Positions 1,691-40,972 of a stretch of DNA of 64,000 nucleotides are shown one piece after another. The notes beneath the pieces are model-generated. The model did no database searches, was not told the origin of the DNA, and saw only the letters and a program-made list of their open reading frames with translations. Within the stretch, counting starts at the first letter, position 1. Each line of letters starts with the position of its first letter. This DNA is from Eledone cirrhosa. Lineage: Eukaryota. A program made the position numbers and the translations under genes. The DNA is taken from contig OZ024741.1 in assembly GCA_964016885.1 (NCBI GenBank), positions 292,640,001-292,704,000 of the forward strand, written 5' to 3'.

Positions 1691-3019
1691 ATCATTTTTT
1701 GTCAAATTTCCATGTTGGCACTGATTGGAGATATTATCTTGGTCTGAGTCAGTTCTTACCCTTCTAAGATGGGTTCTAGGATTACATTTCCCTCATATAT
1801 TTCATTTTGTTTTCGGAGTGTAGTTTCTACAACTGGATACCCCTTCTAGCTCCAGCCACTTTACATTCTGTTATATATTTCTTAATCTGTTGTTCTGCAT
1901 TCTCAATAAACTGCCATAAATCTCAAGGTATCATTTGTGCAAATACTATTGTGTATGCTGAGTACATAGTATGGACATTCTTTCTGATCCTTATTTAGTG
2001 AAGACAATTCCCAGAAGATGGGACATGCTTGGTGTAGTTGTTGTTTTAAGTTTGTATTCCCTGAGCAGAATAAGCATATCAATGAAAATTAATGTAATTG
2101 CCATCACATCATTATAGAAAATGAAAAATAAACAAAGCAAACAAATAAAAAAAATGACAAAATAAAATAATATAATAAAAGTTTCATAGATTCTGGTCTC
2201 GGTTTCATTTGGGAAATCTTCGTTGCTTTGATTTCTTGCAGACTTGATGAAAGTAATTCTATGTTTGTTGGGAATACGAGTAGGTCAAATATGTAAATAA
2301 ATTAGAATCTCTTGAGAATGCTGCATTTCCATCTCCATCTGTTGTTGTCTTTTCAATATGCAGAGTCATGGTAATATACTGAGGGTGGATATGTAAAATA
2401 TTCACTGGATAAAATATTGATCAGTAAAGATAATAATCAGTCAGATTCTTCTCTATCTATTATATTAATGATACATAAATGTCTCTTGACCATCAGCATT
2501 TACTTTCCATGTACTTTTTAATCTGCAGCATATTTACAAACTTGCCAGGCCAATTGAACAGAATGACATTTTCAAATTTAAAGTGATAAAGTGTATTTCT
2601 CTCCCTTCTGCCTATGCTCCTTCCCTAGCTAAGGCCCATCCCAATCCTTTACACTCCATCCTAGGTTACAGAAAATTTAACTTGTTCATCTTCCAATTGT
2701 TTATTTCAACTGATATAAACAATTATCACAGACCAAGCACAAATATGATAAAGTAAAAATACTTTATCATATTTCTTCTATGCTCACTTCTAAATCAATA
2801 TCATTAGTTACTGTTATATATATATATATATATATATATATATATATATATATATATATATTATATATATATATATATATATATATATGTAAAGTTATAT
2901 TTAAAATTGTTGGGTTACAACTAGTAAATATTTATAACTGATATAAAAGCACTCGACAAATATTTGGAGTATATTTACAATATTAAATAAATGGAAAACT
3001 ATATTTATAAAACCATATT

Positions 3020-3085
3020 TATTTCATTATATATATTTCGGGGATATCATATTAACAATATGCTATGCCTTCATCAGACAAAATA
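3020..3085 (-). ncRNA. Type I hammerhead ribozyme motif (family A)
   Basis: Reverse complement of 3635-3700. Confidence 0.7.
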
Positions 3086-3634
3086 CAATATAAACAGTTT
3101 TATAGATAAATATATTCGACATACCGTAATAAACATCAACTTCTCTCTCTATATCTCTCTATATCTCTCTATATATCTCCCTTACATTAATACTTGAGCT
3201 AAATAAATAAATAAATAAACAAATAAATAAATAAATTACATCCCTTTACGTTCTGAGTTCAAATAAATAAATAAATGTATCATTGATACACTTACTCAAA
3301 ATGACCTCCCACTACCTAATTTTCTATATATATATATGTATCTATCTCTATTTCCTCTCTCTATATATATATATATCTCTTTCTGTCTCTTTACATGAAG
3401 CTCTTCGCTTTATCTATTTTTCCATCTCTCTATTTTGTTCCATGCATTTCTTCTTTTTCTTTTTCTTCTTTTTCTTCCTTTTCTTCGTTTTGTCTTTCTT
3501 TCTTTCTTTTTTCCCTCTTTTCTTTCTCTCTTTCTTTCTCTCTGTATTTTCACTGCTAGCGTAAACCTCTTCAAATGAAGTTGATGTTTATTACGGTATG
3601 TCGAATATATTTATCTATAAAACTGTTTATATTG

Positions 3635-3700
3635 TATTTTGTCTGATGAAGGCATAGCATATTGTTAATATGATATCCCCGAAATATATATAATGAAATA
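3635..3700 (+). ncRNA. Type I hammerhead ribozyme motif (family A)
   Basis: tattttgt-CTGATGA-imperfect stem II (aggcatagcatatt/aatatgatatcccc)-GAAA-tatata-TA-atgaaata; stem I tattttgt/atgaaata. Confidence 0.7.
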
Positions 3701-3805
3701 AATATGGTTTTATAAATATAGTTTTCCATTTATTTAATATTGTATATATATATATATATATATATATATATATATATATATAACAGTAACTAATGATATT
3801 GATTT

Positions 3806-4108
3806 ATATATATATATATTATATATATATATTATATATATATATATATATATATATATATATATATATATATATATATATATATATATATATATATATA
3901 TATATATATATATATATATATATATATATATATATATATATATATATATATATATATATATATATATATATATATATATATATATATATATATATATATA
4001 TATATATATATATATATATATATATATATATATATATATATATATATATATATATATATATATATATATATATATATATATATATATATATATATATATA
4101 TATATATA
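3806..4108. repeat. ~300 bp (TA)n microsatellite
   Basis: Direct reading. Confidence 0.95.
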
Positions 4109-4113
4109 TGTGA

Positions 4114-4275
4114 AAGGCGAATTGGCAGAGTTGTTAAGACATCAGATAAAATGCTTTACTGTATTCATCCCACCTCATTGCGTGCTCTGAGTTCAAATCC
4201 CACTGTAGTCAACTTTGCCTTTCATCCTTTCGAGGTTGATAAAAAAAAGTACCAGTCCAGTACTGGGGTTGATTC
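4114..4275 (+). mobile_element. tRNA-derived SINE (family 1)
   Basis: TGGCAGAGTTG...GAGTTCAAATCC...ctttgcctttcatcc...gtaccagt. Confidence 0.75.
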
Positions 4276-38603: not shown

Positions 38604-38988
38604 AGAATAGAAAACGAAAAATCAGTGATGCATCGGAACTCAATTTATTGTGTGTTACAATTGTTTCGCCAGCGGACAGCTCGAGACGTGATCATTGTGT
38701 GGATCTGTTTGATTCTGGTCCCGCAGGTTCATGTGAGCATATTCTCTCTCAAGTGAGAGAATATGCTCCGAAATCATTAGACGTGTCCGTCGAACCTGCG
38801 GGTCCAGTATCAGACAATGATCCCGTCTCGAGCTGTCTGCTGGCGAAACAATTGTAACACACAATAATTTGAGTTCAGATGCATCACTGATTTTTCGTTT
38901 TCTATTCTATCATACTCTGCTCTGTAAGAGCATAGAGTGCTCAACCGGCATACCACTTATGGAAGCATCTTAGCTACCATCAGACACA
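38604..38988. mobile_element. Fold-back element (family D) carrying the 3' half of an HHR
   Basis: Arms ~38604-38730 / 38792-38909, central hairpin gagcatattctctc/gagagaatatgctc, GAAAcaattgTA at ~38845, tail 38910-38988. Confidence 0.75.
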
Positions 38989-39565
38989 TATATATACATT
39001 GACTGAATACACACATGTTTTTTGTCAAAAATGTTTTTGCCACTCCTTCCTCTTCTCACTTTCTATCTTTCTATTTCATCATTTATTTCTTATTCTATCT
39101 TCTGATGAAGGACTAGTGACTGATACATAAAGACACTTTTCCTTCTATATCAAGTGTTAAACTAATATATTTCTTCATTGTACTGTGGTATTTGCTTTGT
39201 TGTTCCTATCTATTTTCTGCACACACAAACACACACTCACAAACTCATATATATAAGCTCAAACATATGATATCCTAGCAATTTTGAAATTCATTGGGCT
39301 AAATATTAGAAATTCTAAAAATCTAGAAAGATTGTATTAGACTATACTAATAAAACTGAAAAACATATAGAGTTCAAACAAATTTTTACAGAAAATGTTT
39401 CCTCTTTTATTTTTGCTAGGTACTTACTATGCTGCAGTCATAATTCAATGTGTGTGTGTGTATATATATATCATTAGGAAAATTATTTAAAAATGGGTTT
39501 GTAAAGTGCACCTGGTAAATATATATATATATATATATATATATATATTATATATATATATATAG

Positions 39566-39785
39566 TATTTATTAAAATAACAGATTAAGTTTAAGCAAAG
39601 AATCGCTGCTTTCACCCTGCTTTCACTTCAGAAGATCCCGTTAAGGGTGAAAGCAGCGATTCTTTGCTTAAACTTTAATCTGTTATTTTAATAAATATTT
39701 GCTCTAGGGTTCTTATAAATTTGATATATATTTATCCTTATCAGGCCCTCTTTGGATTTTAGTCTTCAAATTTATTATTATTACT
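39566..39785. mobile_element. Fold-back element (family E) in (TA)n
   Basis: Arms ~39566-39618 / 39643-39698, tail to ~39785. Confidence 0.7.
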
Positions 39786-40424
39786 ATATATATAGTATAT
39801 ATATAGTTATAGTATAATATTAATAGAATATCTTACCTTATAATAAAAAATTATAATAATCTAGAATGAGCTAAATTAAATTAAATTAATTTAAGCATAT
39901 AAATTTGTAATTACCTTAAATATTTGATTGCTATAGAATCTGGATACAATATAAACTCATAATTAACTAAAATGTAATCCAATACAAGCAATATTCACTG
40001 ATAAATGTGAAAAAAATGTTAATTTCTAATTTTGTCTAGCATTTGAATACAACGGTTTTTTATTCTCCCCTCTATTTTATCCTTTCCTTTACCTCTTCTT
40101 CGTTTTTCTTCTTTCTTTTTTCTCCACACATCTTCCCTTTCTTTTGTTTTTATTCCCCTTTTTTCTCTCTTACATCTTTTTTTCTTTTATTCATTTATTT
40201 ATTTATTTATTCATTTATTTGTTTATTTCTTGCCTTTTTCTTTTTCTTTGCATCTTCCATCTCAATTCCCCTTCTATACTTCTACCTTGCACTACGTCCT
40301 CTTCTTCTCTAAGTTTATCATATTATTTGTGGTATAAAAACGTTGAGAGTTGGTCAAATAAACCACTACCACTATTGGAATTGAATAATCAAAACCGTAG
40401 CGGTATGTCGCATATAAAATCCTA

Positions 40425-40487
40425 TATTTTGTCTGATGAAATTGTACTTAAACACCATTGTACCTTTGAAATATGTATAATAAATTA
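40425..40487 (+). ncRNA. Degenerate hammerhead motif (old family A relative)
   Basis: tattttgt-CTGATGA-weak stem (gtac/gtac)-GAAA-tatgta-TA-ataaatta. Confidence 0.5.
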
Positions 40488-40676
40488 TATATTTTGATTA
40501 TGAGAATATTTTTCATTTATTAATATTTTGAATAATATTAAATACTCCAGGAAAATTACTGTTGAGTGCTTCTAATCTATTGTAAAATTGTATTTGTTGA
40601 ATAATCAACAAACCATATTAATCTTTGGTTATATATATATATATATATATATATATATATATATATATATATATAT

Positions 40677-40972
40677 ATACGATATTAATAAATGGAAACT
40701 ATATTTATAAAACCATATTTATTTCATTATACATATTTCAGGGATACCAAATTAAATTATGGTATGCCTTCATGAAGGCATTGTCTGATGAAGGCATACC
40801 ATAATTTAATTTGGTATCCCTGAAATATGTATAATGAAATAAATATGATTTTATAAATATAGTTTCCATTTATTAATATCGTATATCTACTCCAAATACT
40901 TGTCGAGTGCTTTATATCAGTTATAAAAATATTTACTTGTTGTATCCCAACAATTTTAAATAGAACTTTTGC
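40677..40972. mobile_element. Fold-back element family A; HHR core 40781-40841 (+)
   Basis: Arms 40677-40773 / 40788-40884, tail to 40972; CTGATGA-aggcatacca/tggtatccct-GAAA-tatgta-TA. Confidence 0.85.

What the first reader, a model, noticed from the sequence alone, without database searches (positions are those of the whole stretch)
2889..40972. One 'tailed arm / short arm' rule shared by 5-6 unrelated element families
Seen: in these inverted insertions one arm carries the full terminus and the other stops at a fixed internal point, mostly an AT-rich motif fused to the flanking microsatellite. Family A: short arms end at ...aatat(c/t)gta in three loci, tail ~85 nt. Large PLE: short arm ends at ...ttctccATAT (10984), tail 4830-4940. 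Family B: short arms end at ...ataacaATAT (23114 and 31565), tail ~50 nt at 30515 and 34281, only ~8 nt at 22311. The 38604 element has a ~80 nt tail and abuts (GA)n; the 39566 element has a ~85 nt tail; 4405-4808 probably follows the same pattern. Known: PLEs show inverted pLTRs and 3' tail extensions. Inference: one target end primes reverse transcription internally by microhomology with the repeat, while the other end joins cDNA begun at the true RNA 3' end. This would be a general twin-priming route into microsatellites.
Basis: partly seen in the sequence, partly recalled or inferred. Interest (0 to 1): 0.75.

Follow-up and report, generated by a model that had tools for sequence, protein, structure and literature searches.

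The report
Penelope insertions primed at two sites
These mirror-image insertions in TA repeats belong to, or closely resemble, a known kind of jumping gene (Penelope-like), and almost all sampled ones have one long and one short end, likely because both cut DNA ends start copying the same RNA at two fixed inner points.

Summary
The pattern is real. Across five families, 101 of 105 sampled inverted insertions pair one short and one tailed arm. The window itself holds an unmentioned short+short exception (23732-24002). The families are unalignable but not unrelated: H (4828-10984) and D are Hydra-type, B is Neptune-like, and A and C share H's end motif. The one-sided tail and two internal RT start sites are published (PMC8557442, PMC3846280, PMC11167929). 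Twin priming of PLEs was not found in print, but this scan has noted it on other DNA.

Two corrections. The tailed end is probably not the RNA 3' end: 20 of 100 H tails run on into the next unit, ends scatter over about 12 nt, and none is polyadenylated. Microhomology sets the register, not the site: 1 of 16 TA motifs is used, and a bulged hairpin follows both H ends.

Side result: (TC)n tracts at element ends were not in the target (far side is TA in 22 of 26, against 0 of 46 in background). RT stutter versus later slippage is unresolved.

The parts
2889..3143 (-). Family A arm with tail (tail 2890-2975)
3577..3745 (+). Family A short arm; about 430 nt with microsatellites separate it from the tailed arm
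4405..4808 (.). Family F inversion: 46-nt arms, about 70-nt tail on the left; clade not established
4828..8771 (-). Family H (Hydra-type PLE) tailed arm as a partial tandem: pLTR 8771-7797 with a run-on tail, coding region about 7751-5517 with an in-frame stop and a gap of about 41 nt near its start relative to other copies, terminal pLTR, tail 4828-4940
7797..7907 (-). Internal tail that runs on into the next unit; a CTC..GAG bulged hairpin follows 4 nt later
8769..10984 (+). Family H short arm, 5'-truncated, ending CCATAT at (AT)n
22311..23115 (.). Family B inversion: left arm with an 8-nt stub of tail, right arm short; hammerhead cores at 22515 and 22924
23139..23553 (.). Family A inversion, short + tail; hammerhead cores at 23236 and 23370; junction recurs at other loci
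23732..24002 (.). Family A inversion with two short arms (exception to the rule)
25757..26292 (.). Family E inversion with a hammerhead core at 26198; the left arm stops upstream of the ribozyme, so it does not test the rule
30515..31565 (.). Family B inversion: 97-nt tailed arm + short arm carrying the GIY-YIG coding end (Neptune-like)
34281..34819 (-). Family B solo tailed arm
38574..38605 (+). (AG)16 between (TA)n and the short end of family C; repeats the element's last dinucleotide
38604..38987 (.). Family C inversion, short + 79-nt tail; bulged hairpin 6 nt after the short end
39566..39783 (.). Family D (Hydra-type endonuclease in a longer copy) inversion, short + about 86-nt tail
40680..40972 (.). 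Family A inversion, short + tail

Best explanation
These are insertions of several families with Penelope-like ends in (TA)n, nearly always with one short and one tailed arm, likely because both cut target ends prime reverse transcription on the same element RNA at two fixed internal start sites, and the two cDNAs are then likely joined head to head.

Shown: two end clusters per family 55-113 nt apart; one of each per inversion; solo copies with either end; read-through of the tail in tandems; a bulged CTC..GAG motif 3-8 nt behind the short end (A, C, D, H) and 4 nt behind the tail end (H).

Inferred: (a) the GIY-YIG nuclease cuts both strands of (TA)n; (b) the protein, perhaps as a dimer, is placed on the RNA by structure, in Hydra-type families probably by those hairpins; (c) 1-4 nt of primer-RNA pairing fixes the exact base; (d) the RNA survives copying, so the two cDNAs can overlap (that PLE RT lacks RNase H is recalled, from no call); (e) the cDNA 3' ends anneal through a few bases.
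For: Pairing: 101 of 105 pairs are short+tail (A 30/32, B 19/21, C 12/12, D 13/13, H 27/27); 22 of 23 in position-ordered H lists.
Ends: 68 of 100 H matches end in a 10-nt short-end window, 29 carry the tail, 3 are other (hand tally). Of 100 tail matches, 80 end within about 12 nt and 20 run on (hand tally).
Two primings: the short arm is the longer one in 26 of 47 scorable pairs, the tailed arm in 12, equal in 9.
One template: arms of a locus are closer than the median other copy in A 26/27 (1.3% vs 4.6%), B 15/17, C 6/9, H 9/14.
Site choice: 1 of 16 (H) and 1 of 7 (B) TA motifs is used. The hairpin motif occurs 4 times in the 2966-nt H unit, two of them just behind the two ends; shuffles give 0.65 per unit.
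Junctions: H overlaps are 1-4 nt in 12 of 21.
Reads: the short end with (AT)n recurs in raw reads of two other individuals of one study (18 and 9 reads).
Literature: in vitro, a PLE cuts and extends both strands and starts at two internal sites that bound the tail (PMC11167929).
Against: 4 of 105 pairs break the rule (2 short+short, one of them the 8-nt stub at 22311; 2 tail+tail). Arm similarity could come from gene conversion in a hairpin, or from two RNAs of one source locus; in H and C the signal is weak. In the window's H copy the two coding arms differ at about 16 sites plus a 19-nt gap in 1372 nt, more than the pLTRs do (2-5 of 864). The hairpins fold weakly (z about 0 for H, A and D, -2.3 for C), and the motif is absent from B, F and the window's D copy. 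No transcript ends were seen, so the RNA end is inferred. The in vitro paper reports starts without primer homology and no strand difference in start site. 54 of 101 short+tail pairs could not be scored for arm length.
Confidence: 0.68

Rival explanations
1. Two RNAs are used, one per target end. An asymmetric dimer, or a difference between first- and second-strand priming, makes one end use the short site and the other the tail site.
For: Gives the same short+tail excess. Arms overlap by hundreds of nt. Arm similarity is weak in H (9 of 14) and the window's H coding arms differ by about 1%. A dimer is predicted for PAc (PMC11167929).
Against: Family A has several sequence subtypes, yet arms match each other in 26 of 27 loci. 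Solo copies show that either site can serve alone.
Confidence: 0.14
2. One reading: one end primes internally wherever it finds microhomology with the repeat; the other joins cDNA begun at the true RNA 3' end.
For: The short end has 3-4 nt of TA overlap in H, B, A and D. 44 of 68 H short ends are CCATAT|AT; 20 more carry TA or (TC)n in place of the CA, mostly at the same register. Tail ends of A, B and C are sharp.
Against: 20 of 100 H tails run on; no poly(A); ragged ends. Hairpin motif lies beyond the tail. 15 of 16 TA motifs are unused, including one inside the tail. PAc starts internally at both sites whatever the RNA end.
Confidence: 0.1
3. Self-priming: a single cDNA or an antisense template folds back to make the inversion (Arkhipova 2013), and the second arm is captured at the short site by microhomology; or ready-made palindromes are re-mobilised whole.
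For: 9 of 47 scorable pairs turn at the same point, some at a self-complementary centre. One family-A junction recurs in at least 7 loci, from a search that used the junction as query. The model is in print (PMC3846280).
Against: In 26 of 47 pairs the short arm holds sequence absent from the tailed arm, while only the other arm has the tail. The recurrent A junction occurs with the tail on either arm and on several subtypes.
Confidence: 0.08

Closest known systems
Insertion units of EN+ Penelope-like elements with inverted pLTR and one-sided tail (Craig et al. 2021 PMC8557442: passages and section 11 read; Arkhipova et al. 2013 PMC3846280: passages read)
   Same: [quoted passage not shown]
   Different: Tails here are 55-113 nt, not 30-40. 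The passages read give no counts and ascribe the tail to endonuclease resolution and the inversion to self-priming; here the pairing is counted (101 of 105) and needs two primings.
Poseidon element PAc of Anolis, internal initiation (Frangieh et al. 2024 PMC11167929: main text and part of the methods read, supplements not opened)
   Same: Both strands cut and extended; two internal RT start sites bound the tail; AT-rich target.
   Different: PAc starts without primer homology and the two sites were not assigned one per end. Here the short site has 3-4 nt of TA overlap and each inversion uses one of each.
Hydra clade of C-terminal EN+ PLEs (PMC8557442 section 11)
   Same: H has a unit of about 3 kb, DKT, RWR for RWK, CxCX5C, no CCHH, CxxC and CxH beside E and N, and (TA)n targets. 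D has the same endonuclease type.
   Different: No canonical hammerhead was found in H or D by motif or Rfam search. No tree was built.
L1 twin priming (recalled; PMC3649969 seen as search listing only)
   Same: Second target end primes internally on the RNA; head-to-head junction with short overlap.
   Different: L1 starts at poly(A) and at a variable internal site, with arms that barely overlap (recalled). Here both sites are fixed and internal, and the arms overlap.
Compound microsatellites by duplication of an imperfect end unit (Kofler et al. 2008 PMC2644718: abstract and passages read)
   Same: A new tract differing by one base grows at the end of the primary repeat.
   Different: Here the seed is the element's last dinucleotide; whether RT or replication grows it is open.

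Membership tests
EN+ PLE | RT plus C-terminal GIY-YIG endonuclease | tested here: met
   GIY-YIG: B E 4.5e-5 (above cut-off), H E 7.7e-4 (below cut-off). D peptide seen in a longer copy. The H RT region got no Pfam or PDB hit and rests on motifs read. A, C, E and F were not linked to a coding region.
EN+ PLE | pLTRs in partial tandem and inverted arrangement | tested here: met
   H 4828-10984; tandem spacing about 3 kb elsewhere
EN+ PLE | Tail at one end | tested here: met
   101 of 105 pairs; longer than the published 30-40 bp
EN+ PLE | Hammerhead ribozyme in the pLTR | tested here: inconclusive
   Core motif with a plausible stem in A, B and E; only loose matches in C and F; none in H or D. 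Rfam listed no hammerhead (150 of 259 rows shown).
EN+ PLE | Target-site duplication | not testable with these tools
   Hidden in (TA)n; no empty allele obtained
Hydra clade (H, D) | CxCX5C linker, no CCHH, CxxC/CxH beside E and N | tested here: met
   Translations against the text
Hydra clade (H) | DKT and RWK motifs, unit under about 3 kb, (TA)n target | tested here: met
   DKT and RWR; unit 2966 nt in the window copy
Hydra clade (H, D) | Canonical hammerhead | tested here: inconclusive
   Not found by a simple motif scan or by Rfam; no structure descriptor was run
Hydra clade / Neptune clade | RT phylogeny | not tested
   No reference set at hand
Neptune clade (B) | [quoted passage not shown] | tested here: met
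   [quoted passage not shown] Nematis was not excluded.
L1-type twin priming | First primer at the RNA 3' poly(A); arms do not overlap | tested here: not met
   No poly(A) in 100 tail matches; arms overlap. It works like twin priming but is not the L1 form; the L1 features are recalled.

The most novel reading that the evidence does not exclude
Besides twin priming at two hairpin-marked RNA sites, the PLE reverse transcriptase stutters on the first template dinucleotide like its sister telomerase. It writes (TC)n or (AC)n between the (TA)n primer and the element, and so seeds compound microsatellites across the genome.
Probability: 0.3. Interest if true: 0.75.

Novelty: new variant of a known kind. 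Interest (0 to 1): 0.5.

Why it matters
How PLEs build their inverted, one-tailed insertions is stated as open in PMC8557442 and PMC11167929. A near-strict one-short-one-tail rule, with arms from one template and a candidate RNA marker behind each start, turns that into a direct experiment in an existing in vitro system. It also helps annotation: small hairpins in (TA)n that look like MITEs or microRNA precursors are PLE stubs. If the end tracts are made by the RT, this would be repeat addition by a telomerase relative and a source of compound microsatellites.

Tried and rejected
Empty allele: the read tool skipped the repeats at locus L173 and no contig bridged it; the flank of L051 proved to be another repeat with 1779 candidates. 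No RNA holder was listed, which says nothing about expression. Tail-end signals at 4839-4840 in RAD reads sit at an AATT site with mixed loose ends; I take them for library artefacts and did not use them.

Rfam on the window gave only microsatellite and hairpin look-alikes below the gathering score. Pfam and PDB did not recognise the H RT region.

The first age test (rho 0.44, P 0.017) was spoiled by duplicate loci; after merging by coordinates rho is 0.33, P 0.075, n 30. The Fisher line printed used guessed counts and is discarded; one search gives the real ones.

I dropped the idea that H has a second short start site 5 nt upstream: those ends equal the main end with CA replaced by TA. Family C (AC)n was not counted as evidence of stutter, because no C tandem junction was found and the tract may be native. 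A collision of the two RTs was considered (10 tail-only arms) but not supported, since very short short-arms are as common in H.

Paper searches without a relevant hit: Penelope + tail + inverted + twin-priming (0 papers); Penelope + twin priming (3 listings on other subjects, not read); Penelope + template slippage; retrotransposon + template slippage + tandem repeat + telomerase. The library lacks most subscription papers, including the older Penelope structure papers, and supplements were not opened, so prior mention is not excluded.
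Full report
Setting. The window is G000:C2:292640001-292704000 of a 3.0-Gb genome in 1796 contigs, 33% GC and full of (TA)n. That it is an octopus is my inference and a label in earlier scan notes; no database call names it. 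I call the families A (2889, 23139, 23732, 40680), B (22311, 30515, 34281), C (38604), D (39566), E (25757), F (4405) and H (4828-10984). S is a short end, T a tailed end.

Observation. Four corrections: A at 23732-24002 has two short arms; B at 34281 is solo; the arms at 2889 and 3745 are separated by microsatellites; E's left arm stops upstream of the ribozyme and does not test the rule.

What they are. H encodes an RT-like region with DKT and RWR, a CxCX5C linker and a GIY-YIG domain without CCHH, matching the description of the Hydra clade. A longer D copy has the same endonuclease type. B ends in a GIY-YIG domain with a Neptune-like cysteine linker. A, B and E carry hammerhead core motifs. 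A and C were not linked to a coding region but share an end motif with H and D. F is untyped. So the rule is shared among PLE-type families, not across element classes.

Genome test. I examined 864 kb taken without regard to content (seven blocks including the window), 30 search loci each for A, B and C, and 90 H loci merged to 73. Of 105 inverted pairs with both ends classed, 101 are S+T, 2 S+S and 2 T+T. Three more pairs with a TA tract between the arms, all S+T, were set aside. 56 alignment ends that were neither S nor T were dropped (A 8, B 21, C 5, D 10, H 12). The B query favoured tailed arms and one H query favoured (TC)n ends. The position-ordered H lists avoid that bias and give 22 S+T, 1 S+S and 0 T+T on C1 and C2. 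Raw reads of two other individuals from one study show the H short end with (AT)n.

Two primings, probably one template. In 47 pairs with a scorable junction the S arm reaches further 5' in 26, the T arm in 12 and both equally in 9; 54 pairs could not be scored. A folded-back cDNA begun at S has no tail, and one begun at T cannot give a longer S arm, so two RNA-templated starts are needed. Arms of one locus are more alike than the median other copy in A 26 of 27, B 15 of 17, C 6 of 9 and H 9 of 14. Gene conversion could add to this. H junction overlaps are 1-4 nt in 12 of 21, with small gaps or none in 7 and 11-12 nt in 2. One A junction recurs in at least 7 loci with the tail on either arm (the query contained that junction), which fits a hotspot or re-copying of a palindrome.

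The tail end is probably internal. Among the first 100 of 344 H tail matches, 20 run on into the next unit, 76 join (TA)n over about 12 nt, 4 join (CT)n and none has poly(A) (hand tally). 71 of the 76 end in T followed by A, and the mode (33) has only 1 nt of overlap. This agrees with PAc, where both starts are internal whatever the RNA end (PMC11167929). Transcript ends were not seen here.

Microhomology sets the register. Among the first 100 of 306 H core matches, 29 are tailed, 3 other and 68 short. The short ones are 44 CCATAT|AT, 16 with (TC)n, 4 CTC|TATA, 2 TCT|ATAT and 2 other (hand tally). Yet the last 720 nt of H hold 16 alternating TA motifs of 4 nt or more and only this one is used. 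B uses 1 of 7, and A uses two adjacent motifs of 13. Earlier scan notes pointed to a bulged CTC..GAG hairpin, and I tested it. It occurs 4 times in the H unit, once 3 nt after S and once 4 nt after T, against 0.65 per shuffled unit. It follows S by 8 nt in three A copies, 6 nt in C and 5 nt in one D copy; it is absent in B, F and the window's D copy. Predicted folding is weak except in C, so its role is inferred.

End tracts. Where the element ends in TC, a (TC)n tract often lies between it and (TA)n: 14 of 19 such H short ends, 1 to more than 30 units, and the 38574 tract in the window. The far end of the same insertion is plain TA in 22 of 26 visible cases; 2 more have their own (CT)n and 2 neither; 11 of 37 were out of view. 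In the background, 46 of 3318 (TA)n edges carry (TC)3 or more and none of the 46 has TA on the far side. So the tract was most likely not in the target. H's internal (TC)3, (GT)3 and (AC)3 never expanded in 57, 66 and 29 counts (loci not merged). Family C tails end in (AC)n in most of the first 100 of 816 matches, but that may be native.

Stutter or slippage. For RT stutter: the tract copies the template's last dinucleotide, and one of the youngest copies (1 private change in 1506 nt) has six extra units. For later slippage: this genome grows (TC)n beside (TA)n anywhere (42 of 86 TC-seeded edges have three or more units, GA-seeded edges none); length trends with age (rho 0.33, P 0.075); these ends tend to be older (median 1.1% vs 0.63%, P 0.14); and edge-unit duplication is the published route (PMC2644718). 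I put stutter at 0.3.

Comparison. The inverted pLTR with a tail at one end is in PMC8557442 and PMC3846280; the two internal starts are in PMC11167929. My searches found no paper on twin priming or template slippage in PLEs, within a library that lacks most subscription papers. A bioRxiv preprint (10.64898/2026.07.22.740005; one passage read) did not bear on it. This scan has noted PLE twin priming and the hairpins on other DNA; a search of its notes for the end tracts found nothing.

Verdict. A real and nearly strict rule, on a known architecture of known element classes. The twin-priming reading is likely right. The 'true 3' end' and 'microhomology picks the site' parts are likely wrong. 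Interest 0.5.

Noticed in passing
window 8769-8782 vs 4828-4840 and 7797-7807: The H short arm begins at a coding-region site whose 11-13 nt match the antisense start of the tail. Loci L052 and L157 have tailed arms of only about 12 nt, so this may be a tail stub annealed to the short cDNA, with the 3.9-kb arm as a second insertion.
   Followed up: partly
window about 7735-7745: The window's H copy lacks about 41 nt near the start of the coding region that other copies have and has an in-frame stop at 7080-7082.
   Followed up: partly
864-kb sample: Strong polarity of compound repeats: (TC)n before (TA)n 46 times, (AG)n before (TA)n once.
   Followed up: partly
L231-L260, family A: Many arms stop 5' at the same short motif about 190 nt upstream of the short end; a strong RT stop or an RNA start.
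   Followed up: partly
window 22311-24002, 38604-39783; L083, L093, L251: Different families stack side by side in the same (TA)n arrays.
   Followed up: no
window 26139-26151: Family E contains a 13-nt stretch that recalls the complement of a tRNA-Met primer-binding site (recalled, from no call); probably chance.
   Followed up: no
window 14039-19937, 24029-24979, 20900-21650: Decayed LINE-type RT pieces (Pfam RVT_1 at 18590-19288) and an inverted pair 17506-18454 / 24029-24979 at 96% identity.
   Followed up: no
window 47098-47433: Tandem array of about 50-nt units.
   Followed up: no
L051:2240-2415: Another high-copy young repeat (1779 candidates) that often occurs as opposed pairs.
   Followed up: no
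run X4 (organism B): A second organism holds a close relative of family H with a fixed one-base difference just before the short end.
   Followed up: no
G000:C1:218149807-218149858: Two family-C tailed ends face each other across one short (TA)n.
   Followed up: no
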